From the NCBI RefSeq assembly GCF_963921235.1, contig NC_086107.1, forward strand, positions 93,994,001-94,058,000: a DNA stretch of 64,000 nt, given 5' to 3'. Under the pieces are notes generated by a model. The model did no database searches and had not been told where the DNA came from. It saw only the letters and a list, made by a program, of their open reading frames with translations. Positions 6,401 to 54,800 of the stretch are shown one piece after another (position 1 is the first letter of the stretch; each line of letters starts with the position of its first letter). The translations under genes were made by a program, and so were the position numbers. This stretch comes from Mobula hypostoma (lineage: Eukaryota).

Positions 6401-9400
6401 TGGAGCTAATAGAGAACAGCAACGAGAGAAACTATTCGTACCTCTCACTTCAAGTTTGCATTCCACTTCATCTTCTCCCAGTTCGTTGACGGCCTTGCAA
6501 GTGTAGTTTCCACCATCAAAGGAACTAGGTTTGCGGATTTGAAGCGTCAGGACACCTTGGTTGTGTTTCATCAGGAATTTTGGGTCATCTCCAATCACCA
6601 TCTTGTTCTTCATCCAGATAATCTTCGGCTGCATTGAGGAAAGTGAGTTGTGAAGACAGATCTAACAAAGCGAAGGAGTAGGCAGCAAGGCAGGATGGGA
6701 AGAAGGAACCACGGCAACCAATCAACCAACCAACCAGGCCCCTTTCATAGCCTCACACCACCCAAATATTTCCCTGCCAGTCCTGCATCCCTTCTCCCAT
6801 TGGCCCAGTATATACTCAGTGGCCATTTTACTGGGTGCGGGACGTGCTGGGGAGGCTAGTGCCCGTGATGGAGCTGGGTGTGTTTGCAACTTTCTGCTGC
6901 TTTTTCCAATCCTGTGCTGTGCAGCCCTTTACCAGATGGTGACGCAACCAGTTAGAATGCTGTCCATGATACATCCGTAGAAACTCGCGAGAGTCTCTGG
7001 TGACATACCAAGTCTCCTCAAACTCCGGAGGAAATATAGCCACTGTCATGCCTTCTTTGTAACTGTATTGATATGCTGGGCCCAGGATAGATCTTCATAA
7101 ATGTTGACACCCAGGAAGTGGAATCTGCTCACCCTTTCCACTGCCGATCCTTTGATCAGAGACTGGTGTGTGTGTTCCCTCAACTTCTTCTACCTGAAAT
7201 CCACAATCAACACTTCTGACCTCTCATTAACAAGCCATTTTCACCCACAGAACTGCCACTCACTGAATGTCGCACCATTCTCTGTAAACTCTAGAAACTG
7301 TTCTGCGTGAAGATCCCAGGAGATCAGCAGTTTCTGAGATACTCAAACCACCCCATCTGACACCAACAATCAAGGTCACTTAGATCACATTTCTTCCCCA
7401 TTCTGATGCTTGGTCTGAACAACAACTGAACCCCTTGACCACGTTTGCATGTTTTTATGCATTGAGTTGCTGCCACGGGATTGGCTGATTAGATTGGCGT
7501 TAACGAGCTGGAGTACTGGTGTTCCTAATAAAATGGTGACTGAGTGTAGTATTCTCAGTTCACCTACTCCAATCTTCCCAAGTGCACCAGCCCCATTGAC
7601 CAGCACCTGGACCACAGTCCTCCATAACTCTCCCATCCATTTACTTATCCAATCTTCTCTTAAATGTTGCAATCAAACACCACATCCACCACTTCCACTG
7701 GCACTCCCTTCCACACTCGTGCCACCCTTCTAGTGAAGAAGTTCGCCCTCAGGTTCCCCTAAAATATTTCACTTTTCACCCTTGGCCTTTGACCTCCAGT
7801 TCTAGTTTTGCCCCAACCTTGGTGGATAAAGTCTGCTTGCATTTACCCTTATACCCCTCATAATGTTGTATACCTCTATTAGATCACCCCTCATTCCCTT
7901 ACATTCCAAGGAATAAAGTCCTTAACCTTTTCAACTTTTCCCTCTAACTCAGGTGTCAAGTCTGAGCAGTAAATTTTCTCTATACTCTTTCAAGTTTATT
8001 GATATCTTCATACATCCTGATGGTAGAAAAAGAGACCTTGTGGCCCATTGAGTCTATCCTAGCCCATTCCCTATACTTCTGCCACCCACCTACACAACAG
8101 GGGCAAATTACAGAGGCGAATGGATCTACTAACCATGCGTCTGAGAGAAAACCAGGGGTCCTAAGAGAAACTCGCATGGTCAGAGGGAAAAGGAGAAGAC
8201 GGGTGAGGGAGAGGGACAGTGGGCGTGATGTGAGATGCTAGGAGGTGATGTGTCTCTATTAAAGAGCCCTCTCCCTCACCTGTCTATCACCTGGATTCAC
8301 CTCCCACCTGCCAGTCCCTGCTCCAGCCCTCCGTGCTTCCCGCGGCACGGTAGCGTAGTGGATGGTGTAACGCTTTACAGCACCAGCAACCCGGGTTAAG
8401 TTTCCTCTGCTGGGCGCAAGGAGTGTCTATGTTCTCCCCGTGACGGTGTGGGTTTCCTCCCACTTTCCAAAGATATATGGATTAGGGTTTGTAAGTTGCG
8501 GGCATACTATGTTGGCAACGGAAGCATGGCGACACTTGCGGCTGCCCCCAGCACATCCTTGGACTGTGCTGGTCATTGATGCAAATGACACATTTCACTA
8601 TACGTTTCGATGTACAGGTGACAAATAAAGTTGATCTTTCTCTTCTTTCTTTCACCTATTTATACCATCCATCTCCCAACTTTCTTTTCAAAGACGTATT
8701 GGTCAGTGGGTTATTTGGTCACATGGGTGTAATTGGGCGGTGCGGGCTCGATGGGTCAGAAGGGGCTGGTACCTAAATAAAATAAAAACTCCAATTGCTG
8801 GAAATACTCAGCATGTCAGTCAAGATCAAAGTAAGGCAGGTCAAGGTTTCAGGTCCGAACTGGGAAGGAGGCAGAAGAGGTTGACTAAGACTGGGGCAAG
8901 GGGGTTGTCTCTGATAGGGTAAACCTGGGAGTGACCATGGGGATAAACTATAAACAGGGTTCTCTGGTCCGTAAGTGAAAGGGAGCAGTTAGCGAGCGAG
9001 AACACGGACGAGTGAATGTGGAAGGTGGTGAAATGCGGAGCAGTAACCTTCCTGTGTGCTCACAGCAGATGGACGGGTCAAGAGGAAGAATGTTGTGCCG
9101 TGAATGAGTGCTGGGGCTTCCAAAATACATTTACAGAGACAGTAAATTGGCCCCCTGAAATTCTTAGATACTCCATCAACCTGCAAATTCTTTTCCAAGT
9201 CCATAAAAAAATAAGACACAGGAGCAGAATTAGGCTACTTGGCCTATCGAGTTGGCTCCACCATTCCATCATGGCTGATTTATTAACCCACTCAACCCCA
9301 TTATCCTGGCTTCTCCCCGTAATCTTTGACACCCTTACTAATCAAGAACCTATCAACCTCCGCTTTAAATATACCCAGCGACTTGGCCTCCACAGCTGTC

Positions 9401-12400: not shown

Positions 12401-15400
12401 TGGATGAAGGCCGTGTCCTTTGAGACGCGGGGGCTATCACTCAGGCCACAGATATTCTCACTGAAGACACGGAAGTAATACTCATTACCCATGATGAGAT
12501 CAGAGATGGTGCAGCCGGTTTTACGATTGTGCTCGTACACCGTGAACCATTCCTAAACGCAAAGGGTGGAAATATTTTTACTGTTTGTGCAAACCATCAG
12601 ACCTGAAAAGGAGTTCAAAGTTCACTCAAGGTTTCCCCTCGACTGATTCACCTGTGATCTTCTTGAACAGATCTTGTGGACATTAAAGATGAGCTTTTGA
12701 TCTCTCAGTATACCTCGCCATGTCCTTTACCCTTTACTGTCTACCTGCACTGAACTCTCTCCGTTACTGTAACATCCATACCTTTATGCGTTGAGTTGCT
12801 GCCACATGATTGGCTGATTAGATATTTGCATTAGAGAGCAGGTGTACCTAATAAAGTGACTGTTCCGTGTATATTCTGCACTCTGCAACTGTTTTCACTC
12901 TTGTACCAACTGATGTACCTGCAGCTCAGCACATTTCAGAAACTAGCCGCCCCTCTAACACTTCCTGCTACCACAGTAAAGCAGCCAGCATATTCAAAGA
13001 CCCCACCCTCCCCAGACATTCGCTCTTCTCTCCTTTCCCATCGGGCAGAAGATACAAAAGCCCGAAAGCACATCCCACCAGGCTTTAGGACTGCTTCTAA
13101 CCCACTGTTATAACACAATAGAACACAACAGTTTGATAAGCTGGACGATTGACTTCACAATCTACTTTGTCATGGGCTTGCAACTTAACGTCTGCCAGCA
13201 CTGCACTTTCTCTGTAAGTGCAACAGTTTATTCTGCATTCTTTCACTGTTTTCCCTTGTGCTACCTTGATACAATGATATGATGAAATGATCTATCTAGA
13301 GGCCATGCAAAGCTAAGTTCTCCACCATATCTCGGTACATATAACAATTACAAACCAGTTTCCCAATTAGACCCATAGGGTTATACAGCACAGACACAGG
13401 CCCCGTAGCCAGACTGGCCCCTGCCACAGAGCAACACACACTAAAAAGCTAAAGGAACTCAACAGGTCAGTCAGCATCTATGGAGAGAATAAGCAGTTGA
13501 CATTTTGATCCAAGACCCTTGCCCTGTGCCTTATTCTGATTGTCGAAAGCCATTTCCATTGTGATTGGTTAGTTTAGAAGCTGCAGCTGCTTTTCCCATT
13601 GGATAGAAGCCTGGTGCCCAGTTTCAAATATCCTGAGTATATAAAATTGTACATGGAAGGGGATTTCTCTCTTGGGAAGTTATGCTCTGCGCGCACTTTC
13701 AACCAAGTATGTTTGTTGAGTATTCCACTTTGTAGTGTCTGTAGCTTGGGGAACATGAATGTTTGATTGAATTTTTACTGTTTGTAAATAAATGGTTAAT
13801 ATATCTATTTGAAATCAGTGCATTTCCTGTCTCACTTGCCTAGACCCGCGGATCTGATTCAACATTACAACCCTTCATCGGGACATCTGTGTATCACTGC
13901 GTCTTTGTGCAGACAAGTGTCTGTGTCCTTGGGTTTGCGTGTCTGACTGTGTCAGTGTGTGCATGTGTATTATGACTGTTTGTTCTTCTCCGTAGATGCC
14001 ACCTGACCTGCTGAGTTTCTCCAGCATTTTGTGAGTGTTGCTCTGGATTTCCAGCATCTGTCGATTCTCTTGTGTTTAAGCCATGGCTGTAATGGATGGC
14101 CATTCCCGGTACCCCAGACTCACCATGGTTTTCTTGTCAGCTTTCTGAATGGTATAGCCAATGATTTCAGAGTTTCCATCATCCTTTGGTGGTTTCCACT
14201 CTATGCCAGCATTGAATCCCCAGACATCTGTGATCTTCAGGGACTCCGGCGGTCCTGGCTTCTCTGAAATAATTTATGCAAAAGGGAATTCAAGGAAAAA
14301 CTGCAGGCTGCTTCCGGGAATTAAATCTAAATTTCAAAGTGAAATTATTATCAAAGTATGTACAGTATGCGTCACCATGTACTACCTTGAGATTCATTTT
14401 CGTGCAGGCATTTGCAAGAAAATAAAGAAATACTATACAATTTATGAAAAACTCTACATAAACAAACCCTGACAAACAGCCAAGGTGCAAAAGAAGACAA
14501 ATTGTGCAGATAATAAAAAAGTGAATAAATAATACTGAGAACATGAGTTGGTGAGTCCCTTGAGAGTGAGTGTGTGGGTTGTGGAATCAGTTCAGAGTTG
14601 TGGTGTGTGAAGTTCTCCACACCAGCTCAGCAGACTTAAGGTTGTAGGCTAAGGGCTGTTCCTGAAACTGGTGGCTCATTGTTGAATTAAAGCTGGCAAG
14701 CATGATGATCATCATATGGCCATTAGTGAGAAATCCCTCTACTTTCTACCATAACTCCTTTCATTGCATGTCTGACAAAGTACGAAAAGCCAAAGGTCAT
14801 GATAAAACAGGTTGATGAGGTTAATGAGGCCAAGTTAGGAGTAACACACATCAAAGTTGCTGGTGAACGCAGCAGGCCAGGCAGCATCTCTAGGAAGAGG
14901 TATGGTCCATGTTTCGGGCCGAGACCCTTCGTCAGGACTAACTGAAAGAAGAGCTAGTAAGAGATTTGAATGTGGGAGGGGGAGGGGGAGATCCAAAATG
15001 ATAGGAGAGGACAGGAGGGGGAGGGATGGAGCCAAGAGCTGGACAGGTGATTGGCAATTTGGATATGAGAGGATCATGGGACAGGAGGCCCAAGGAGAAA
15101 GAAAAGGGGGAGGAGGGGAAAACCCAGAGGATGGGCAAGGGGTATAGTGAGAGGGGCAGAGGGAGAAAAAGAAGTGTATTGCTTGAATTTCCAGCATCTG
15201 CAGAATTCCTCGTGCTTCCAAGTTAGGAGTATTGTGTGCAATTTTAATCACCTACCTACTGAAAAGTATTAAGAAGATTCAAAGAGTACAGATAAAATTG
15301 ACAAGGATGTTGCCAGGACTCGAGGACCTGAGTTCTAGGGAAAGGCTGACTGGGTTAGGAATTTACTCCCTGGAGCTCAGGAGAATGAGTGGAGATTTGA

Positions 15401-18400
15401 TAGAGGTGTATAAAATTATGAGTGGGATAGAGTACAGTAAGGTGGGTGAGACTAGAGCCAGAAGTCATGGGTTAACGGTGAAAAGTGAAATATCTAAAGG
15501 GACCTGAGGGGGAACTTCTTCATTCAGAGGATGGTGTGAGTGTGGAACAAGTTACAAGTGGATGTAACGGATATGGAGCCACACACATACAACTAGATCT
15601 TACTAGCTCTTCTTTCAGTTAGTCCTGACGAAGGGTCTCGGCCCGAAACGTCGACTGTACCTCTTCTTCGAGATGCTGCCTGACCTGCTGCATTCACCAG
15701 CAACTTTGATATGTGTTGCTTGAAATTCCAGCATCTGCAGATTTCCTCGTGTTTGCGTAACAGATATGGGTTCATTTTCAACCTTTAAGGGAAGTTTGAG
15801 CAAAATGGGAGGTGTATGGACAGCTATGGTCCAGTGGTTGATGGGACGAGGGAGATTAATACTTTAGCATGTACTGTTTCCATGATGGACAATGCATTCC
15901 TGAGGTACCTCCTTCCCTCCGCTAACCTGCAGGTCACCCTGGGCAATGTGCAGCATGAGACCAGGTGCTGGACGGTCGTATGAGCAGCTGGTGCATATCC
16001 CAAGTCCTGGTTATGTTTGTGTTGTTGTTGTTGTTGGATGCTTGAATTTGGATGCATTAGTCTACTTTTTTCTTAGCCGTTGGGTGGTACGTCTGTAGGA
16101 TTCATTGTTACAGACAGCTGTGGAGAGCAAGTCATTGGGTATATTTAAAGTGGAGGTTGATTAGTCAGGACATCAGAAGGTGATGGGTAGAAGGCAGGAG
16201 AATAGGATTGAAGGGGATAATATATCAGCCATGATGGAATGGGAGAAAGGATTTGATGGGCTGACTGGCCTAATTTCTCCCCTATGTCTATCTGAAAGTC
16301 CCCATTGTCAGGTCATCTTCACTCATGTCTGCATCCTTCCTGATGGATTCAGCCAAAGGCTCTATACAACACCCGTACAAGACAGGGGAGAGAGGACAAC
16401 CTTTTGTGACTCTTGTTCTTGCCAGGAAATTCAAGCATCCAACAACAACACCTGCTGGAGACGGAGCAGCAAATTCTAAAATGACAAGCAACTGTAACAC
16501 AACCAGTCACCTGATCCATCATCCTCATCTGCTGTGCCAGTAAATCATCCTCTGGCCTTTTATGAATTTGACCTTTGGTGTTTAGATATCGTATAGATAT
16601 GTATAGGTCACATTTTGCAAGGGTTATTGGAAATTGGGACTTGTCCTTTAAAGATCTTTGAATTACTCTGAAATATCCTTATAGGGAAAAGGAGGAGGTT
16701 CCTTTAAATGAAGATCTCACACCCCAGGCATTCTCTCCTCTCCCCCCTCCCATCAGATAGAAGATACAAAAGCCTGAAAGCACATACCACCAGGTCTTTC
16801 ATTGGTGTTGTGAGCTGAACTTTACACATTGGGCTCAGTGCACAGGGAGGGGATGGAATTACTGACAAATTTCTGTAAGGTTATCTTGACAGAAAGAACA
16901 TCAGAAGCCTGGCATCAGCCACGTTCTCTCGCGGGAGACAACGTGCTTACTGGAGACAGGGATTGTACAATTTTAACAGATGTGTGAATCAAAGAGTTTC
17001 TGCTCTAGAGACAGAATCTTATCTCAGATTTTAAGTAACAAGTCATTACAGATCAAAGAAACATTCTGATCCCTAAGATCTTTTACTTCCAAGTTTAAAG
17101 ATTAAAGATTAGCTTTATTTGTCACATGTACATCGAAACATACAGGGAAACGTGTCGTAGGCGTCAAACCAAATCAACGGGGATTGAGCTTGGCAGACCG
17201 CAAATGATGCCAGGCTTCCAGTGCCAACATAGCATGCCTGTTACGCTAATCCATACATCTCTGAAATTTGTGAGGATACCGGAGCACCCTGATGAAACAC
17301 AAGAGTGTCTTCCAAGAGGAGGTAGAGAGCTGGAGAAATATAGGGTGGAAATTCAGAGCTTAGAGCTTGGACAGCTGAAGTGTCCGTGTGGTAACGTACA
17401 AACTCCTTACAGTCAGCAGTGGTAACTGAACCCCAACCTTATAGCTGGCACTGTAAAGCACTGCACTGGCTGGTACCCTACCAAGCTATTCCACTTCAGA
17501 CCACAAGACCATAGGCTACAGGAGCAGAATTAGACCATTTGGCCCATCAAATCTGGTCCACCATTTCATCATGACCGGTTCATTTTCCCTTGCAGCCCCA
17601 ATCTCCTGCCTTCTCTCCATATCCCTTCAGTCCTGACCAATCAAGAACCTATCAACCTCTGCCTGAAGTATACGTAAAAACTTGGCCTCTCTGGCCGAAT
17701 GTGGCAACAAATTCCACAGGTTCACCACTCTCTGGCTAAAGAAATTCCTCCTCATCTTCATTCAGAAAAGACACCACTCTATTCTGAGGCTGTGTCCTCT
17801 GGTCCTAGACTCTCCCACCACAGGAAACATCCCCTCTACATCCACTCTATTGAGGCCTTTCAATATTCGATAGGTTTCAACTATGTCACCCCTCATTCTT
17901 CTGATTTCCAGTGAATAGAGGTCCAGTGACATCAAACGCTCTTCATATGACATACCGTTCAATCCTGGAATCATTTCCATGAACCTCCTTTGTGCTCTCT
18001 CCAGTGTCAGCATTTCATTTCTGAGATGAGGGGCCCAAAACAGCTCACAGTACTCCAATACTGTTGTCCAACCAATCTTCAGCTGTCCAACCTCTCTCTG
18101 AAATCCCTCCCTATATCTCCCATCTCCTATTCCAAGTCACTCGGAACATTGTAAGCAGTTTTGGGTCCCTTATCTAAGAAAGGAGGTGATGGCATTGAAG
18201 AGAGTCTCGAGTAGGTTCACAAAAATGATCCTGGGCACAAAAAGCTTAACATTTGAGAAGTGTTTGATGGCTCTGGGCCTGTACTTGCTGAAGTTTAGAA
18301 GAATGAGGGAGGACCTCATTGAAACCTATTAAATATTGAAAGGTCTAGATAGAGTGGATGTGAAAAGGATGATTAATACTGAAGGAGTCTAGGACCAGAG

Positions 18401-30800: not shown

Positions 30801-33800
30801 TATAAATATATAGATAAATAGATACATACAAACAACCTAAGCACATGAGTTGCAGGATCCTCGAAATTGGGTCAGTAAGTTGCAGAGTAGCACACAGAAA
30901 ATGCTGGAGGAACTCTGCAGGTCAGGCAGCATCTGTGGAGAGGACTAAACAGTCGATCCTCTCAGCCAAAACGTTGACTGTTTATTCCTTTCCATAGCTG
31001 CTGCCCGGCCTGCTGTGTTCCTCCAGCATTTTGTACGTATTACTCTGGATTTCCAGCATCTGCAAAAACCTCTTGTTTTTCTGTAGGTTGCAGAATCAGT
31101 TCGGAGTTGAAGTGAGTGAAGATTTCCACGCTGGTTCAGGAGCCTGATGGTTTGAAAGGTAATAACTGGTTGTGTGTGTTATAATTACAGGAAAAATGCA
31201 GCATAGATACACAATAATGTGCAAGGGCCACAACGAGGTAGACTGGGGGGGATAAGGAGTTCATCTTTTAGCATATCAGAGTCTGATAACGGGGAGATTG
31301 AAGCTGCCCTTGAACTTGGTGGTTTGTGTTTTCAAGGATGAATTAATTTCAGGAGCTCGGCTCTGATTTAATGGAACAAATCAGTAGTTTGGTACTTACA
31401 GCCTTCCTTTGCATATTCAATCAGGTATCCGTCCAGCCCACCAGGACCGACCTTCTCCGGCATTCTCCACTTTAGCGTGGTGGTGGTGTCAGTCACATCC
31501 TCGACCACCAAGTGCGTTGGCTCACTGGTGGTGCCTTAAGACAGGGAACAGATACTTAGTGCCCGATTCACTGTGGTCACTTGCCATGGGCATCAAGCCA
31601 TGGGACATATATTCATATCACGAAAACCAATTTTCCCCAGGATCAATAGAGTATGACTATGACTATTATATAGAACACAGAACAGTATAGGCCCTTCGGC
31701 CCACAATAGGGTTGCCAACTGACCCGTATTAGCCAGGACATCCCATATATTGGGCTAAATTGGTTTGTCCCATACGGGACTGCCCTTGTCCCGTATTTCC
31801 CCCGCTAAGGTAGAGCGTTCCTATGAAACCATTCATAAGCCGAAATGGCATAAAGCGAAGAAGCAATTACCATTAATTTAATTGGGAAAATTTTTTGAGT
31901 GTTCCCAGACCCAAAAAATAGCCTACCAAATCATACCAAATAACACATAAAACCTAAAATAACACTAACATATAGTAAAAGCAGGAATGATGTGATAAAT
32001 ACACAGCCTATATAAAGTAGAAATAAAATGTATGTACAGTGTAGTTTCACTTAACAGAATTGGGAAGATTAAGCCAAAACCAATTTGTAGAAAAAAATCG
32101 GCAAGTACATGCATACGCACATCATGTATGTGCACATCACGCATGCGCACACAGGTGCCCGCGCAAGGTTTCATGGACATGGTAGTCTTTCTCGGGGTAA
32201 ACACAAGTGTCCCGTATTTGACTGCTACTTTTGTCCTTTATTTGGAAATGAAAAAGTTGGCAACCCTAGCCCACAATGTTCTGCTAACCTAGATATATCT
32301 ACTCCACTATCAATCTAGCCCTTCTCTCCTATACAGCCCATGAACTATCAATTTTTCTACCATCCATGTGCCTAGCTATGAGTCCTGTAAGGCCCCTAAT
32401 ATACTTGCCCCTACCGCCACCTCCAGCACTCATGCACCCTTCACTCTCTCCTTAAAAAAAACCTCCTTCTGACATCCCCCCCACCATACTTTTCTCCGTT
32501 CAACTTAACAGAATGTCCTCTGGTCCAAGCAATACTGTACGATACAGGCCCTTCAGCCCATGGTGATAACCTAGCTCATCCCAATTTTCCGCATTCGGCC
32601 CTTATCCCTCATATGTCTTTCTTAAATGTTACTATTATACCTGCCCCAACCACTTCATCTGGTAGCTTGTCCCACATACTCACCACCTTCTGCCTCTCAG
32701 ATCCCTTCTAAACCCTTCCCCTCTCACTCTAACCTAATACCCTCTAATATTGGACTCCCCTACCCCGGGGAAGGCTGTGACCAAGCACCTTATCAATGCC
32801 TCTCATATTTTTAAACATTTCTAAAAGATCACACCTACGTTTCAAGGAATAAAGAGCAAGCCTGGCCGACCTCTAACTCAGGCCCCCTAGTCCTGGTGAC
32901 ATTCTTGCAGGGGTGCAGTGCTAGCTGGAGCACACCGGAGCGCGTCCGGCACATCTTTAAGAAGAAAGCCGAAATAAACAAGCTAATTAATTAGGTGCCA
33001 CCCAGGGTGATTTGAGTATCTCAGAAACTGCTGATCTCCTGGGATTTTTACGCACAACAGACTCTGGAGCTTACAAAGAATGGTGCTGAAAACAAAAAAA
33101 CATCCAGTGAGTGGCTGTTCTGTGAGAGAAAAAATCTTGTTAAATCAATTGGTGGATTTTTTTGTTTGTTTTCAGCATCATTCTTTGTAAACTCCAGAGC
33201 CTGTTGTGCATAAAAATCCCAGAAGATCAGCAGTTTCTGACATACTCAAATCACCCTGGGCGGCACCTAATTAAATAGCTTGTTTATTTCGGCTTTTCTC
33301 TAAAACATGTGCCGGATGCGCTCCAGTGCGCTCTGGCTAGCACTGCACCCCTGCATTCCTGTAAACCTCTCTGCCCTCTTTCCAGTTTAACCATGCCATT
33401 CCTGCATCAGGATGACCAGACTGTGCACAGCACTACAAGTGTGGCCACTCAATGCCTTACAGTGTCTGTCCTTATACAGGATGACCGGAACTCTACACGG
33501 TACTCCAAAAGTGCATCCTCACAAACGACTTGTGCAACTGCAACATGATCTCCTAGCTGCTGTACTCACTTGGTGCCAACAGTGGCCCAAAGCCACAACT
33601 CATGAACTCCGCCAGAATGAAAACTCTTCCTGAACCACATAGAAGTTGTTCCACTTCATCACCAGATGCAGCCACAAAGAGACTGCAGATGCAGGAATCT
33701 AGAGCAGCAGACACATCCTGATACGGAGTTCCACAGAACACACAACAGTACGGCACTGTACAGGTCCTTCAGCTCACTGGCCTGTTAACCTACATTCACA

Positions 33801-39800: not shown

Positions 39801-42800
39801 TACATGTCACTATATACCACCCCGAGATTCATTTTCTTGCGAGCATTCACGGTACAACAAAGAAATACAATAAAATCAACAAAGGGGGGGGTCGTTGCTC
39901 GCTGCCGCTTACGCGCCGGGGGGGGAGCTGGGGAGGCACTTTGGAGTTCTCACGTTTAACTGTCGTTCGTTTTTTGGGGTATGTCTCTGTTTTTGTGGAT
40001 GTTTGCAAAGAATAAGCATTTCAGGATGTATATTGTATACATTTCTGTGACATTAAATTTGACCTTTGAAATGCAAAACACTTTCAAACGACCAATGTGC
40101 AAAAGAAGACAAACTGTGCAAATAGAAAAAAACTAAGAATAATAAACGACAACATGAGGTGTTCAGTCCTTGAAAGGAAGCCCATCAGTTGTGGAATCAG
40201 CTCAGTGTTAAGGTGACATTATCCACTCACCTTAAATTGGCTTCTTCCCCTTCACCATCAGATTTCTGAATTGTCCATGAACACTACCTCACTGTTCCTT
40301 TTCTTTCTGCACTGTACCCACAAAATAATAAATTAGTTTACTGGTACAGATCTGTATTGCAGATTGAAAACCCATTGGACCGCGGAAGTGCTGGACAGCA
40401 GAATGCAGACTGCAGAGTTACCGAACCTCGCATGGAAACCTTCAGTCCAGCTCGTCCAATTTGAAAGAGTGCAGAGAAAATTTACAAGGATGTTGCTGGG
40501 ACTTGAGGACCTGAGTTATGGGGAAAGGCTGAAGAGTGCGATGTCACCGGTAAATAAGGTCGTAGAGAGAGGTTTTTGGCACATAAATCAAAGTACTGAG
40601 TACAGGAGTTGGGATGTTATGTTGAAGTTGTATAGGACGTTGGAAAGGCCAGATTTGGAGTACTGTCAGCAGGCCAGGCAGCATCTATTTAAAAGAATAT
40701 TGTCGACTTTCAGGCCAAAACCCTTCAGCAGGACTGAAACATCAGCAGAGTTTTGGCCCGAAACGTCGACTGTACTCTTTTCCATAGATGCTGCCTGGCC
40801 TGCTGAGTCCCTCCAGCATTTTGTGTGTGCTGCTTGGACTTCCAGCATCTGCAGATTCTCTCTCGTTTGAGATTGGGTTCGGTTAGAACCTAAAGTTATA
40901 GCTTAAAGGTGAATGGTAAATTATTTAAGGAAACCTTTGGGAGAACATCTTCACTCAGGAGCTGGTGCGAGGGTGGAATAAGCTTCCGGTGGAAATGGTG
41001 GACGTGGGTTTAATTTCAACACTTAAGAGAAATTTGGATAAGTGCTTGGCTGAGAGGGGTATGAAGGACCCTGGTCCAAGTGCAGGTCAATGATTCTAGG
41101 AAGATGAACAGTTTAGCATGGATTAGTTGGGCCAAAGGGCCCATTTGTGCTGTAGCACTCTAGGACTCGATGAATACAGATACTATTTGTGGAAATATTA
41201 TATTCGGTTTCAATCATTTAACTGAGTTAAGGTGGCAGACCAGAACTTTCAAAAGTCTTGTCGGAAATGGCCAAGAGTTGATTCAGACATGGTTACAAAA
41301 CTACTTTTGGCTGACCAGCTCAAATTTCTTTCTCTTCCCCTTGATGCACATTATAAACTTTGAGGGAAGTTCCACTCGCATTGCAGGCTTGGAGATTTCC
41401 CCGATCAGCCTGATGCAGCCACAGTGGTCAGTCAGGAGAATCCCCAGGGTAAGTCCCAGCGCGCTGCAATCTCGATGGCACTGCAGCGTGGTGGATAGCC
41501 TTCAACTTTGCGGCACCTGTGGTCGGGCTTCAAATCCCATCACTGCCTGTAAGGAGTCTGTACATTCTCCCCGAAACCACGTGGGTTTCCTCCCAGTGCT
41601 CTGGTTCCCTCCCACATTCCAAAGGCGTATGGGTTAGGGCATGCGATGTCGGAGCTGGAAGCGTGGCGTCACTTGCGGGCTGTCCCCGGTGACTGTGTTG
41701 AAACCACACGTTTCACCGTATGTTTCGATGTACCTGTGACAAATAAAGCTAATCTTTAGATCCTTAATCTTTGAAAATTGGCCCTTCAGTTGTGCCAGAC
41801 AGGGCCATCCTAGGCCTACAAGTGGTATGAACAGTGGTCCATTCTGGACAAGCTGATTCGTGTGGTAGCAACTCCAGCTCCGTGTTACTAGCCCTCGGAT
41901 TTGAGTCCCTCTTTAACGTCCCGAGCAGAGACGGTGATCTATTGGGAAGAATGTGTTTAAGCAAGACAGGCAGCATCTATGGAGGGGAATAAATTGTCGA
42001 CGTTTTGAGCCATTATCAGTTAAGGAAGGAAAGGGGGAAGAAGCTGGGGGAAGGGACGGAGTACAAGCTGGCAGGTGATAAGGTGAGTCCAGGTGAGGGG
42101 GGAAGTTGGGACAGTGGGGAAGAGGGGTGAAGTAAGAAGCTGGGATGTGATAGGTGGAAGAGGTAACGGTTGCAGGAGAAGGAATCTGATAGGAGAGGAG
42201 AGTGGACTGTGAGAGAAAGGGAAAGGGGGTGGGGCACCAGAGGGAGATGATGGGCGGGCGAGAAGAGAAGAGATAAAGGGGGAGCCATAATGGGAAATGG
42301 AAGAGGAGAGAAGGAGGAGGGGAGAGAAATTAGCAGAGGTTAGAGAAATGAATCCCCACCCTAATGAGGTTTTTTTGTTCTCCCTCCCAGCTCGGATGAA
42401 GGGTCTCTGACCTGTAACGCTGACTCTGCTTTTCTTCCCGCTGATGCCGCCAGACCTGCTGAGGGTTTCCAGCATTGTCAGTTTTAAACACGAGGGATCC
42501 TGCCAATGCTGGAAATCCAGAGCAACACACACAAGATGCTGGAGGAACTCAGCGGGTCAGACAGCATCTACGGAGAAAAATAAACAGTCAGCATTTCGGG
42601 CAGAGGCACTTCAAGTCAAGTCAAGTCACTTTTCATTGACATTTCAACCATAACTGCTGGTACAGAACACAGTAAAAATGAGACAACCTTTTCCAGGACC
42701 ATGGTGCTACATGAAACAATACAAAAACTACACTGAACTACGTAAGAAAAAACACAAAAACTACGCTAGACTACAGACCTACCCAGGCCTACATAAAGTG

Positions 42801-51800: not shown

Positions 51801-54800
51801 TAAACCTGATTCTGATTTGGGTCTCTGTTGTGGACTGAGAGTGGGAAGGGGGCAGGGAGAGGGGAATCACGGTTGGGAAAAGGGGAAGGGAGAGCGAAGC
51901 ACCAGAGAGACATTCTGTAATGATCAATAAACCAGTTGTTTGGAATCAAATGACTTTGCCTGGTATCTCAGGGCTGGGTGTGTCTGCACCTGCACCAACC
52001 CCCACCTGCCCTTGGCACTCCTTCTCTGCCATCTGTCCTTCTGTGGCACTCCACCCTCACCAATCCCAACATTCTTTGCTCCCGCCAGATTTACAAACTC
52101 ACTCTCCACTCCACATTGACAAATACAATACTGTACAAAAGTCTTAGGCACCCTAGCTACGCAGTATGTATCATGTTCCATAGTCTTTCACTTTCCTCTT
52201 TTAATTCACCATTTTATTGATTCCTGTATGTTGTGTGCATTTGAAATGGCTATATCTATTAAGTAATTTGCTCTTGCTTGTTTAAGCTGTAATATTATAT
52301 CAAGACCGGACAGTTATTATGGATCATCCTGTCTGTAATAATGGATCAGTCATAATATAATTTGTAGGGCCCTGACTCGAAGACCAGATCAGGCTTGTAT
52401 TTATAGTAAGGAATGGTGCCTTTTTTTAAGATTGTATCTTAAAGCAGGATTTTGGTGAATGATGTTTGCCTCTTGACTGGGCCTGTATAAGTAATCAGAT
52501 TGAGTTAGATTGCTACAGGATCATGTAATATTATAATTCAAAAAAGTACTGTACTATTATTATTTTGTTTCTCTGCGCTAAATTTGTGTCTCTGTGGTTA
52601 CTGTTCCTCCAACTCATATGGAAGCTTTCCCTTCATTATGACACAAAACCTGTCTATACTTCTTGTTGCCTCGGTTAGTAGTCAGCAGGATCAAAGACCC
52701 CACCCACTTCAGACACTTTCCCTTCTCTCCCCTCTCATTGGGCAGAAAATATGTTGCTTGAAAGAACACACACCAGGCTCAGGGACAATTTCTACCCCAC
52801 TAAAACGATTCACAGTCCTCTACTACAATAAAATTGACTTGACTCACAATCTATCTTGTTTTGACCTTGCTCTTTAACATTTACCTGCACTGCATTTTCT
52901 CTGTAACTGTAGTTTATTCTGCATTGGTACATTGTTTTACCTTGTTCCAGCTCAATGCATTGTGCTAATGATCTGATCTGAATGAACAGTATGCAAGTCA
53001 AGCTTTTCTCTGTATCTCGGTACGTGTCCCTAATAAATCAATTACCAATACTTCTACTCAATTGCCCATGACTTTCTCTGTGCAGTACTGGTCCCTCTTG
53101 CGTGCAGTCACAGATGATTAGATTAGATTAGATTATGAGGACACGCAGTCCTCTTTTATTGTCATTTAGTAATGCATGCATTAAGAAATGATACTATGTT
53201 CCTCCAGTATGATATCACAGAAACACAGGACAAACCAAGACTGAAAAACTGACAAAAACCACATAATTATAACATATAGTTACAACAGTGCAAAGCAATA
53301 CCATAATTTGATAAAGAGCAGACCATGGACACGGTAAAAAAAAGTCTCAAAGTCCCGATAGCCTCATCATCTCACGCAGACGGTAGAAGGGAGAAAACCT
53401 CTCCCTGCCATGAACCTCCAGTGCTGCAAACTTGCCAATGCAGCACCCTGGAAACACCCGACCACAGCCAACTCTTGAGTCCATCCAAAAACTTCGAGCC
53501 TCCGACCAGCCCTCCGACACCGAGCACCGAGTACCATCTCTACCGAGCGCTTTGACCCCGGCCCCAGCAACAGGCAATAGGCAAAGCCGAGGATTTGGGG
53601 CCTTCCCCTCCGGAGATTCTCAATCGCACAGTAGCAGCAGCAGCGCAGCAGGCATTTCAGAATTTTCTCCAGATGTTCTTCCGTGCTTCTCACGTCCATC
53701 TCCATCAAATCAGGATTGTGCACAGTACCTACTTAACAAATACCGATATCATTTCGGAGCGGCCATGCGCGCTGCGTCACACTGCCGTCTTCTCCTCCCC
53801 TCCATAGATGATACTGCAAACCCTGACACTATGACCCCCGCACCCCCCCAACTGCCCCTCCCACCAACACACCACCCCAGGATGGCAAGCAGAGAGAAAG
53901 AAAGCTCCCTTACCAGACAACCACAGCTCCGTCTTCTGACACCTCACATTCAAACTCAACCCGGTCATCCACGTACACATGCTGGTCGTCCAGGGGCACG
54001 ACGACGGTGACAGGCGGTTCTGAGAGAGAAACAGTGTTTACAGAGGGCACTGGGATCTCAGCTTCCGTCTCCGGGAACTGAAGAACCAAGCTGAGCAGCA
54101 AGGGAAAGGCATTTAAAGTTTCTTTAAAAAATCTTTAACAGACAGCACCTTAAGGACCCTCACTATCTGTCAAGTTGAAGGAGCAACACCTCATATTCTG
54201 TCTGACTAGCCTCCAACCTGCTGGCATGAAAACCAACATCTCAAACTTCCAGTAATCTCTCCCCCCTCCCTCCCTCTCTCTTGTTTCATTCACCAATCTT
54301 GTTCCCCTCTCTCCCCTTCCCTCTCCTCCCCTGTCCATGTCGTCCCACTGGTGCCCTTGTCCCTTCCTTTTCTTCCTTGGTCTACTTTCCCCTCCTATCA
54401 AATGTGTTCTTCTTCAGCCCTTTACCTCTTCCACCTATCACCTCCCAGTTTCTCACTTCATCCCCCTCCTCCACCCATCCACCTTCACCACCATGCCCCA
54501 AACCTGGTCTCACCTATCACCTACCAGCTTGTACTCCTCGTCCTCCTCCCCCCAACTTCACTTCTGGCTTCTGCCCCATTTCTTTCCAGACTCTGAAGGG
54601 TCTCGGCCTGAAACAACAAATATTTATACCCCTCCGTAGATGCTGCTTGACCTGCTGTGTTCCTCCAGCATTTTATGTGTGTTGCCTGCCACGGCCGACC
54701 GTCCAATTCACCACCCACTCTCAATTTCTCTCCACAATCCTCAATTCCTTAAGCATTACACCTTCTTCCTGACTTCCTCAGCTGACATCCACTGGCCTCC

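What the first reader, a model, noticed from the sequence alone, without database searches (positions are those of the whole stretch)
15620..15657. Structurally intact minimal hammerhead ribozyme in a Penelope repeat
Seen: UAGUC-CUGACGA-A-GGGU(CUCG)GCCC-GAAA-CG-UC-GACUG has all conserved core nucleotides, a 5-bp stem I, a 4-bp stem II and a GUC cleavage triplet. Stem III is reduced to the self-complementary ACGU. Established: Penelope-like elements carry such minimal type I hammerheads, thought to cleave as dimers, and an extra A after the CUGANGA box is a tolerated natural variant. The repeat is tied to Penelope by the GIY-YIG remnant at 54172-54255. About a dozen fragments of this repeat family occur in the window, implying a very large genome-wide ribozyme-motif family in this lineage.
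Basis: partly seen in the sequence, partly recalled or inferred. Interest (0 to 1): 0.75.

Follow-up and report, generated by a model that had tools for sequence, protein, structure and literature searches.

The report
Penelope-element minimal hammerhead, relic copy
The motif is a genuine minimal hammerhead ribozyme sequence sitting in a short, broken-off tail of a Penelope-like jumping gene, a kind of element and ribozyme already described in 2014, so the catch is correct but ordinary.

Summary
Window 15620-15657 (+) reads exactly as written. It is the only site in 64 kb that passes my minimal-hammerhead descriptor (0 hits in 100 shuffles).

It carries every invariant core base. It also has the three traits Cervera and de la Pena (2014) list for Penelope-element minimal hammerheads: an unpaired base between A9 and G10.1, a G10.1-C11.1 pair, and a palindromic 15.2-16.2.

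The Penelope link is also right. In full-length tandem copies elsewhere in this 3.48-Gb genome, the same motif lies about 60 nt upstream of the first ATG of an open frame. That frame gives weak Pfam matches to reverse transcriptase and GIY-YIG.

The 31-nt core occurs 7,580 times exactly. A G10.1-U11.1 variant occurs 43,114 times.

Copies of this family show no stem covariation. Five different hammerhead families in the same genome do covary.

The window copy is a 180-nt, 5'-truncated insertion with a target-site duplication, nested in a LINE-like fragment. It is a lone monomer predicted to fold into an inactive hairpin, so it is probably inert. No RNA evidence could be obtained.

This is a known kind. 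The scan has noted the same on other shark genomes.

The parts
15620..15657 (+). Minimal type I hammerhead motif. Stem I 15620-15624 with 15653-15657; CUGACGA 15625-15631; bulged A 15632; stem II 15633-15636 with 15641-15644; loop CUCG 15637-15640; GAAA 15645-15648; C15.2 G16.2 at 15649-15650; U16.1 C17 at 15651-15652. Predicted cut between 15652 and 15653.
   Evidence: Identical 38-mer in 15 of the 42 copies found in 189,796 bases of window plus loci; many of those loci were picked by the motif itself.
15577..15756 (+). 5'-truncated Penelope-like-element insertion, about 180 nt. It has 21 nt of unassigned or possibly inverted sequence (15577-15597). Family homology starts at 15598 and runs to 15721. 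An optional 35-nt 'tail' follows (15722-15756), which in full-length units is the start of the next unit.
   Evidence: Loose ends of contigs at 15598. Tail concept from PMC11167929.
15564..15576 (.). Left copy of the 13-bp target-site duplication, GTAACGGATATGG.
   Evidence: 12 of 13 bases identical to 15757-15769.
15757..15769 (.). Right copy of the target-site duplication, GTAACAGATATGG.
15267..15547 (+). LINE-like coding remnant (...[22 protein letters not shown]...) into which the insertion is nested. It appears to continue after 15770.
   Evidence: my reading of the frame; 68% match to 7709-8004. The resemblance to the C-terminus of CR1/L2-type ORF2 is recalled, not tested.
14842..15217 (-). 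Independent copy of the same element's 3' part, 376 nt. Its hammerhead (14903-14940) is disabled: GUC is ATG and stem I is broken. A 39-nt inverted copy of the element's terminal sequence lies at its 5' end (15179-15217). Perfect 12-bp direct repeats CTCCTAACTTGG flank it (15218-15229 and 14830-14841).
54165..54255 (+). Last ~30 codons and the stop of the Penelope-like endonuclease frame, decayed.
   Evidence: compared.
54582..54622 (+). Decayed hammerhead of that older copy, about 330 nt after the stop. The CUGANGA box is damaged and GUC is lost.
40667..40869 (.). Head-to-head inverted pair of decayed copies that meet at the hammerhead. A similar pair lies at 30886-31078.

Best explanation
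The 38-nt motif is the minimal hammerhead ribozyme (min-HHR) of a Penelope-like retrotransposon family that is hugely amplified in this genome. Here it survives in a short dead-end insertion.

Shown:
- In the parent element, units of about 3.5 kb lie head to tail.
- In each unit the hammerhead lies about 330 nt after the stop of the frame that gives the reverse-transcriptase and GIY-YIG matches.
- Its predicted cut site lies about 60 nt before the first ATG of the next unit's frame.

Inferred from published work on other Penelope-like elements:
- Helix III is only the palindrome ACGU, so one motif cannot close the three-way junction.
- Two motifs in a multi-unit transcript would pair through ACGU/ACGU as a double hammerhead and cut after GUC. 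That would trim read-through transcripts to unit-length RNA with a short leader.
- Insertion itself uses uncleaved 3' ends. Reverse transcription starts at either of two internal sites downstream of the hammerhead. This explains why copies end either at ...TGTGTTGCTT or about 35 nt further, the 'tail'.

The window copy (15577-15756) is such an insertion. It is 5'-truncated 22 nt upstream of the motif, has the tail and a 13-bp target-site duplication, and sits inside a LINE-like fragment. It has no same-strand partner. Its only neighbour is an inverted, disabled copy about 690 nt away, and alone it is predicted to fold into an inactive hairpin. It is therefore most likely an inert relic, intact only because it is young.
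For: Motif and significance.

Features matching the published description of these motifs (PMC4209133):
- a bulged base between 9 and 10.1
- G10.1-C11.1
- a palindromic 15.2-16.2
- a 5-bp open helix I
- dispersed single and inverted copies

Link to the retroelement:
- In L001, L003, L004 and L008 the motif follows a frame ending ...GMNIDFSNFR*.
- L030 holds two units 99% identical over 3,205 bp, with hammerheads 3,512 bp apart. L029 and L031 have the same layout. Open frames of 935-936 aa are present.
- One 936-aa frame matches RVT_1 at aa 427-589 (E 2.4e-5) and GIY-YIG at aa 839-914 (E 5.4e-4).
- 1,038 homologues at E <= 1e-10 carry precomputed PF00078, and some PF01541. The best is 71% identical to a shark protein.

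Abundance:
- 7,580 exact 31-mers.
- 43,114 of the U11.1 variant.
- 134,398 first-look candidates for the RT fragment.

Lineage-level constraint:
- The two CpG-decay products of C11.1-G12 should arise equally. The pair-keeping CCTG form has 43,114 copies. The core-destroying CCCA form has 1,808.

Structure support:
- Nine hand-picked representatives of five min-HHR families in this genome pair at 70 of 81 stem positions.
- When a 5' strand is matched with another family's 3' strand, the fraction falls to 0.50.
- Stem II positions 2-5 show 3-5 pair types each.
- Family C has two double compensatory changes between its two subtypes.

Conserved block:
- Contigs of four coded organisms diverge from the window at 15621 (before) and at 15655/15658 (behind), the edges of the motif.

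Insertion anatomy.

Tail, and two reverse-transcription start sites: PMC11167929, passages.

Monomer fold: the hairpin is -12.9 kcal/mol and the hammerhead-like fold -8.9.
Against: - No cleavage was shown. No RNA run was on record and all runs were contigs, which cannot show ends.
- Within this family there is no covariation: score 0.139 against a shuffled mean of 0.137, with 207 of 500 shuffles as high.
- The between-family table rests on 9 representatives that I chose for intact stems, out of 40 fetched loci plus the window and L030. Of the 40, 17 had a contiguous stem II of 5 bp or more, and several were decayed. I did not test whether families B-E belong to Penelope-like elements.
- The CCTG against CCCA excess is a single lineage event and could be hitch-hiking.
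- Both Pfam matches are below their gathering scores (24.6 against 29.6, and 20.6 against 22.6 bits).
- The predicted double-hammerhead fold (-16.7 kcal/mol) is far less stable than a plain duplex of two copies (-34.1).
- Published min-HHRs cleave poorly in vitro.
- In the Anolis element, hammerhead mutants still inserted, and no RNA-seq ends were seen at the cut site.
- The 5' ends of long copies here do not pile up at the cut site. Of 20 regions fetched, 11 aligned: 2 read through the hammerhead and 9 began 36-601 nt downstream. Only L029, fetched separately, begins within 10 nt.
Confidence: 0.85

Rival explanations
1. The conserved block is not used as a ribozyme. It is kept as a hairpin or protein-binding element of the retroelement RNA, for example for packaging, translation control or recognition by the element's own protein. 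The hammerhead-like core would then be an inherited, now idle feature.
For: - The lowest-energy fold of the monomer is a simple extended hairpin that pairs G5-A6-C7-G8 with C15.2-G16.2-U16.1-C17.
- The commonest and apparently youngest lineage has G10.1-U11.1 instead of the usually conserved G-C.
- Min-HHRs show low activity in vitro (PMC4209133).
- Hammerhead mutants of the Anolis element still insert in vitro, and no RNA-seq ends were found at the cut site (PMC11167929).
- The 5' ends of long copies are scattered.
Against: - Five families in this genome differ in stem sequences. All keep CUGANGA and a base between A9 and a G at 10.1, none of which the search pattern forced. The pattern did force the 3' half, CGAAACGTC. 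A mere hairpin would not need the unpaired core.
- The core-destroying G12A variant did not spread, while the pair-keeping variant did.
- The Anolis hammerhead does cleave, and C3G/G8C mutations behave as expected.
Confidence: 0.12
2. The locus is part of a small non-autonomous 'retrozyme'. That is a tandem of short hammerhead-bearing units that gives circular RNA, not a fragment of an autonomous Penelope-like element.
For: - Animal retrozymes are reported to derive from Penelope-like pLTRs and to occur in one sampled chondrichthyan (preprint 10.64898/2026.07.22.740005, abstract and passages).
- The insertion is short and non-coding.
Against: - There is no tandem. The self-comparison finds a single + copy with its own target-site duplication, and the only neighbour is inverted with a separate duplication.
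- The sequence is collinear with the 3' end and tail of the coding element.
Confidence: 0.02
3. Chance resemblance: a GC-rich hairpin in a repeat that happens to contain CUGANGA and GAAA.
For: - Rfam finds no hammerhead here.
- The motif is short.
Against: - 0 hits in 100 shuffles; 0.02 expected for the simpler pattern.
- The motif is conserved in tens of thousands of copies.
- The same architecture, with other stems, recurs in four further families.
- The position in the element is the one published for all Penelope-like elements.
Confidence: 0.01

Closest known systems
Minimal hammerhead ribozymes (min-HHR) in the pseudo-LTRs of metazoan Penelope-like elements (Cervera and de la Pena 2014, PMC4209133; dimer cleavage: Lunse, Weinberg and Breaker 2016, seen only as a reference in PMC6765202)
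   Same: - Type I topology and a full catalytic core.
- An unpaired base between A9 and G10.1.
- G10.1-C11.1.
- Helix III reduced to a palindrome.
- A short helix I (5 bp).
- Location between the end of one RT-endonuclease frame and the start of the next.
- Thousands of dispersed single and inverted copies, most on truncated elements.
   Different: - Helix II of this family is only 4 bp. The paper describes 7-8 bp in Schistosoma; other families in this genome have 6-8 bp.
- N7 is C, which strengthens an alternative inactive hairpin.
- The majority lineage in this genome has a G10.1-U11.1 wobble.
- I did not see the paper's supplementary alignments, so I cannot say whether cartilaginous fish are already listed there.
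Poseidon-type Penelope-like element of Anolis carolinensis (PAc; PMC11167929)
   Same: - Tandem pLTR-ORF-pLTR layout with a hammerhead near the ORF start.
- Copies end at two alternative sites about 35 nt apart, the 'tail'.
- An RT plus a C-terminal GIY-YIG endonuclease.
   Different: - In PAc the ORF starts inside the hammerhead, with the cut site 26 bp after the start codon. Here the first in-frame ATG is about 60 nt after the cut site.
- Activity was measured for PAc and not here.
Canonical type I hammerheads of animal satellite and retrozyme repeats (Rfam Hammerhead_1 and relatives)
   Same: The same catalytic core and the same open helix I. Both depend on a second copy for a stable helix III.
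   Different: There is no helix III stem-loop and no loop-loop contacts between helices I and II. The motif is not detected by any Rfam 15 hammerhead model, even at E <= 10.

Membership tests
min-HHR of Penelope-like elements | Invariant hammerhead core: C3 U4 G5 A6 N7 G8 A9, G12 A13 A14, A15.1-U16.1, and H17 at the cut site | tested here: met
   15625-15631 is CTGACGA, 15645-15648 is GAAA, 15651 is T and 15652 is C.
min-HHR of Penelope-like elements | An unpaired nucleotide between A9 and G10.1 | tested here: met
   A at 15632. Feature as listed in PMC4209133. Representatives of the four other families in this genome also carry one base there, A or T in the nine tabulated; a few copies show C.
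min-HHR of Penelope-like elements | A G10.1-C11.1 pair closing helix II | tested here: met
   G15633-C15644. In the commoner lineage of the genome this pair is G-U (43,114 copies).
min-HHR of Penelope-like elements | Helix III absent or minimal, with palindromic 15.2-16.2, so that two copies can pair | tested here: met
   ACGU at 15648-15651. The double-hammerhead pairing is formally possible at -16.7 kcal/mol, but it is not the predicted optimum.
min-HHR of Penelope-like elements | Helices I and II supported by compensatory change | tested here: inconclusive
   Within the family there is none: 52 copies, 30 distinct, score 0.139 against a shuffled 0.137. Between five families of the genome there is support: 70 of 81 stem positions paired against 0.50 for mismatched partners, using 9 hand-picked representatives.
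min-HHR of Penelope-like elements | Lies in the repeat that flanks an RT plus GIY-YIG frame of a Penelope-like element | tested here: met
   Met for the family (L029, L030, L031). The window copy is only the truncated 3' end.
min-HHR of Penelope-like elements | Site-specific self-cleavage, as a dimer | not testable with these tools
   No RNA run was on record, and only contigs could be laid.
Penelope-like elements (the host repeat) | A single frame with a reverse transcriptase followed by a C-terminal GIY-YIG endonuclease | tested here: met
   L030:3-2810 (936 aa) matches RVT_1 at aa 427-589 and GIY-YIG at aa 839-914. Both are below Pfam cut-offs. Homologues carry PF00078, and some PF01541. 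In 5 of 6 copies examined the two parts are in different frames.
Penelope-like elements (the host repeat) | Head-to-tail (pseudo-LTR) arrangement, an optional 30-40 bp tail, inverted 5' partial copies, and target-site duplications | tested here: met
   - Tandem units.
- Tail present in 3 of 10 aligned copies.
- Inverted pairs.
- Duplications of 12, 13 and ~10 bp.
Rfam hammerhead families (Hammerhead_1, _3, _II, HH9, HH10) | A match to the covariance model | tested here: not met
   No match at the gathering score in the window, and none at E <= 10 in 15400-15900. This is expected, because those models include a helix III.

The most novel reading that the evidence does not exclude
The lineage that spread most in this genome has these properties:
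- 43,114 exact copies.
- Tandem units 99% identical.
- Open frames of 935 aa.
- A G10.1-U11.1 wobble at the otherwise conserved pair next to the A9/G10.1 metal site.
- C at N7, which favours an inactive hairpin.

If this variant turns out to be catalytically crippled, its success would be natural in-vivo evidence that hammerhead cleavage is dispensable for Penelope-like retrotransposition, as the Anolis in-vitro data hint. The motif would then be kept for another RNA function.
Probability: 0.12. Interest if true: 0.5.

Novelty: new member of a known kind. Interest (0 to 1): 0.2.

Why it matters
It adds one more vertebrate genome in which Penelope-like elements and their minimal hammerheads make up a sizeable repeat fraction: tens of thousands of intact-looking ribozyme cores.

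It also shows that Rfam-based annotation misses them entirely.

The useful by-product is a natural comparison within one genome. A C11.1 lineage and a far larger U11.1 lineage coexist with at least four other min-HHR families. That gives a ready-made panel for testing what these weak ribozymes do for the element.

The single locus in the window has no evident consequence for the host.

Tried and rejected
- **RNA evidence.** The look-up of sequencing runs listed no RNA holder and only Logan contigs. Laying four runs showed the repeat in four coded organisms, but contigs cannot show RNA starts or ends. The proposed check for ends at 15652/15653 remains undone.
- **Rfam.** Nothing at the gathering score. 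At E <= 10 only a chance miRNA-like hit appeared at 15721-15777 (-), E 0.49.
- **Covariation within the family.** None was found. The copies are too alike and differ mainly by CpG decay.
- **Do full-length copies start at the cut site?**
  - L029 starts 8 nt after it.
  - Of 20 further 5' regions fetched, 9 gave no alignment.
  - Nine began 36 to about 600 nt downstream.
  - Two ran on upstream through the hammerhead.
  - There is no pile-up, so this gives no support for a ribozyme-defined 5' end.
- **Tolerance of G-U at 10.1-11.1.** A literature search found four papers. The passages read in two of them did not address it.
- **Lunse et al. 2016** is not held.
- **A fuzzy-regex scan with indels** timed out. 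I replaced it with pairwise alignment.
- **One Pfam call** failed on a wrong frame and was repeated without that entry.
- **The LINE-like identity of 15267-15547** rests on recall. I ran no family search on it.
Full report
**1. The observation**

Window 15620-15657 on the + strand reads TAGTC CTGACGA A GGGT CTCG GCCC GAAA CG TC GACTG. In hammerhead numbering:
- C3-A9 are 15625-15631.
- An extra A is 15632.
- G10.1-U10.4 are 15633-15636.
- The loop CUCG is 15637-15640.
- G11.4-C11.1 are 15641-15644.
- G12 A13 A14 A15.1 are 15645-15648.
- C15.2 is 15649, G16.2 is 15650, U16.1 is 15651 and C17 is 15652.
- The 3' strand of helix I is 15653-15657. It pairs with 15620-15624: U-G, A-U, G-C, U-A, C-G.

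The simple pattern CTGANGA-N(8-30)-GAAACGTC occurs once in the window, against 0.02 expected. A fuller descriptor of my own asks for:
- a 5-position helix I with at least 4 pairs
- an optional bulge
- a helix II of 3-8 bp
- a palindromic helix III insert
- U, then H

It finds this one site and none in 100 shuffles. Rfam 15 has no match at the gathering score or at E <= 10 around the site. This fits a motif without a helix III stem-loop.

**2. What the repeat is**

*Copies in the window.* BLAST of 15590-15760 against the window gives 12 further matches at E <= 1e-3 that overlap the hammerhead part. All of them are decayed in the core.

*Copies in the genome.* The window is part of a 3.48-Gb assembly. 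The 31-nt core, with N at position 7, occurs 3,771 + 3,809 times exactly, against 0 for the reversed control.

*Link to a coding frame.* Eight loci around such matches were aligned. Homology extends upstream through about 330 nt of C/T-rich sequence to the stop of a frame ending ...LRLEEQHLIFRLGSLQPDGMNIDFSNFR*. That frame contains:
- ...IYCVRCSRCGLLYIGETRRRLGDHFAEHL... (GIY-YIG type; Pfam E 9.6e-4)
- further upstream, YIDD

*Abundance and frame length.* A search of the genome with the RT fragment gave 134,398 first-look candidates. Several copies have open frames of 933-935 aa.

*Layout of long copies.* Three such places were fetched.
- L030 holds two head-to-tail units, 99% identical over 3,205 bp, with hammerheads 3,512 bp apart.
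- L031 holds a partial unit plus a full one.
- L029 is a single copy with a ~10-bp target-site duplication.
- In each, the motif lies about 85 nt before the start of the long open frame. The first in-frame ATG is about 60 nt after the predicted cut.

*Protein families and relatives.*
- One 936-aa frame matches RVT_1 (E 2.4e-5, aa 427-589) and then GIY-YIG (E 5.4e-4, aa 839-914). Both are below Pfam's cut-offs.
- 1,038 relatives at E <= 1e-10 carry precomputed PF00078, and some PF01541.
- The nearest is 71% identical to an uncharacterised protein of the shark Chiloscyllium punctatum.

Three things together define a Penelope-like element: RT followed by GIY-YIG, head-to-tail units, and a hammerhead between units.

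A decayed hammerhead lies about 330 nt downstream.

**3. Anatomy of the locus**

*The + copy.*
- Family homology starts at 15598. Contigs of other copies diverge there, continuing into ...CCCTCCCACTTTCAAATC.
- The copy runs to 15721 (...TGTGTTGCTT), where 3 of 10 aligned copies stop.
- It then goes on for 35 nt (15722-15756). That stretch is shared with 2 of the other 9 aligned copies and is identical to what follows in tandem units.
- This is the optional 'tail' of Penelope-like insertions. In the Anolis element it is explained by two adjacent internal start sites of reverse transcription (PMC11167929, passages).
- Direct repeats GTAACGGATATGG (15564-15576) and GTAACAGATATGG (15757-15769) flank the insertion.
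- The 21 nt between the left repeat and the start of homology are unassigned.
- The host sequence on both sides looks like the C-terminal coding part of a LINE. That identification is from recall and was not tested.

*The inverted copy.*
- About 690 nt upstream, on the other strand, lies an independent 376-nt copy (14842-15217).
- It has its own perfect 12-bp duplication and a 39-nt inverted piece of the element's end at its 5' side.
- Its hammerhead is disabled: GUC reads ATG.

*Consequence.* The motif has no same-strand partner. A transcript through both copies would pair sense with antisense rather than form a double hammerhead. That is an inference.

**4. Does the structure have support?**

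*Predicted folds.*
- The monomer's minimum-energy fold (-12.9 kcal/mol) is an extended hairpin in which G5-A6-C7-G8 pairs with C15.2-G16.2-U16.1-C17.
- The two-stem hammerhead-like fold is -8.9 kcal/mol.
- The domain-swapped double hammerhead is -16.7 kcal/mol.
- A plain duplex of two copies is -34.1 kcal/mol.
- Thermodynamics alone therefore does not favour the active form. This agrees with the weak in-vitro activity reported for this class.

*Within the family.* I aligned 52 copies, 30 of them distinct. Many came from loci chosen by the motif itself. Covariation is nil: 0.139 against a shuffled 0.137, with 207 of 500 shuffles as high.

*Between families.* A looser genome pattern, CTGANGA-N(14-22)-CGAAACGTC, gave 371 matches against 84 for the reversed control. 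It revealed at least four other recurrent motifs. I fetched 40 of the first 100 listed rows, choosing those not derived from family A.
- 17 had a contiguous helix II of 5 bp or more directly after one unpaired base.
- Seven copies of family D had 3 + 3 pairs around a U-U.
- The rest were decayed.

Nine hand-picked representatives of families A-E gave these figures:
- 70 of 81 stem positions pair.
- The fraction is 0.50 when a 5' strand is set against another family's 3' strand.
- Helix II positions 2-5 show 3-5 pair types each.
- The two subtypes of family C (GGCUUC/GGAGCC and GUCACC/GGUGAC) differ by two double compensatory changes and one wobble-to-Watson-Crick change.

All families keep a base between A9 and a G at 10.1, which the pattern did not force.

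*Lineage-level constraint.* The CpG formed by C11.1 and G12 should decay equally to TG and CA. The pair-keeping TG form has 43,114 exact copies and is the form found in the 99%-identical tandem units. The core-destroying CA form has 1,808. This is one event, so it is suggestive only.

**5. How it most likely works**

*Shown here:*
- the position of the motif in the unit
- the tandem layout
- the two alternative 3' ends
- the truncated state of the window copy

*Taken from the literature (PMC4209133 parts 1-2; PMC6765202 passages; PMC11167929 passages):*
- Transcription reads from one unit into the next.
- Hammerheads with a palindromic mini-helix III act as dimers.
- Cleavage is thought to release unit-length RNA.
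- Insertion in vitro does not need cleavage.

*Inferred for this family:* cutting after C17 would leave an RNA starting GACUG... with a ~60-nt leader before the first ATG.

*Test of ribozyme-defined 5' ends.* I checked whether genomic full-length copies begin at the cut.
- One begins 8 nt after it.
- Of 20 other long copies sampled, 9 did not align, 9 began 36-600 nt downstream, and 2 ran through the hammerhead.
- This gives no evidence for ribozyme-defined 5' ends.

The window copy itself is best seen as an inert young relic.

**6. Comparison and novelty**

The motif meets every sequence feature that defines the min-HHRs of Penelope-like elements. Activity could not be tested.

Departures from the published picture are small:
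- a 4-bp helix II
- C at N7
- in the majority lineage of the genome (not in the window copy), G10.1-U11.1

Earlier notes of this scan report the same kind of element in other shark genomes.

On whether this is in print:
- My searches with 'hammerhead' plus 'Penelope-like' and related terms found the 2014 description, reviews, the Anolis biochemistry, and a 2026 preprint on vertebrate retrozymes that sampled one chondrichthyan.
- I found nothing specific to this family.
- I did not see the supplements of the 2014 paper.

Verdict: correct observation, correct interpretation, known kind, low interest.

Noticed in passing
L029 3395-6700, L030 3200-6500, L031 3309-6620, L003 124-1210, L008 1829-2711; exception L030 3-2810: In 5 of 6 copies examined, the RT part (YIDD) and the GIY-YIG part (YIGET) lie in different reading frames, even where the RT frame is open for 935 aa. 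One unit of the L030 tandem has both in one 936-aa frame. This could be a shared defect or a frameshift that the element uses.
   Followed up: partly
window 15598-15624; also L001-L031 upstream of each hammerhead: Helix I is preceded by about 300 nt of C/T-rich sequence ending ...TTCTTTCAG|TTAGTC (older copies: ...CCCAG|TCC). This looks like a polypyrimidine tract plus a 3' splice site. The 2014 paper notes that the Drosophila virilis Penelope intron ends at the 5' edge of helix I.
   Followed up: no
window 40667-40869 and 30886-31078; genome rows (e.g. C1:2546805/2546844): Head-to-head inverted pairs of copies are common, with the two hammerheads only about 40-75 nt apart. About 10 of the first 100 rows form minus/plus pairs within 2.2 kb. 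Transcripts through them would form long hairpins.
   Followed up: partly
genome-wide: e.g. L064, L043, L046, L059, L037: At least four further min-HHR families have different stems: helix II of 6-8 bp, and helix I UUGCA/UGCAA in one family. All have one unpaired base after A9. I did not examine their host elements.
   Followed up: partly
window 15721-15777 (-): A weak Rfam match to mir-2208 (18.3 bits against a gathering score of 70, E 0.49) falls on the tail of the insertion and the flanking sequence. It is almost certainly chance.
   Followed up: no
window 15267-15547 and 7709-8004: Fragments of a LINE-like coding repeat (...[22 protein letters not shown]...). The Penelope-like insertion is nested in one of them.
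   Followed up: no
position 15644: In the contigs of one coded organism (run X1), the U11.1 form holds 62% of the depth at that site. In the other three runs it holds about 10-17% (X19, X2, X20). The balance of the two lineages therefore differs between related organisms.
   Followed up: no
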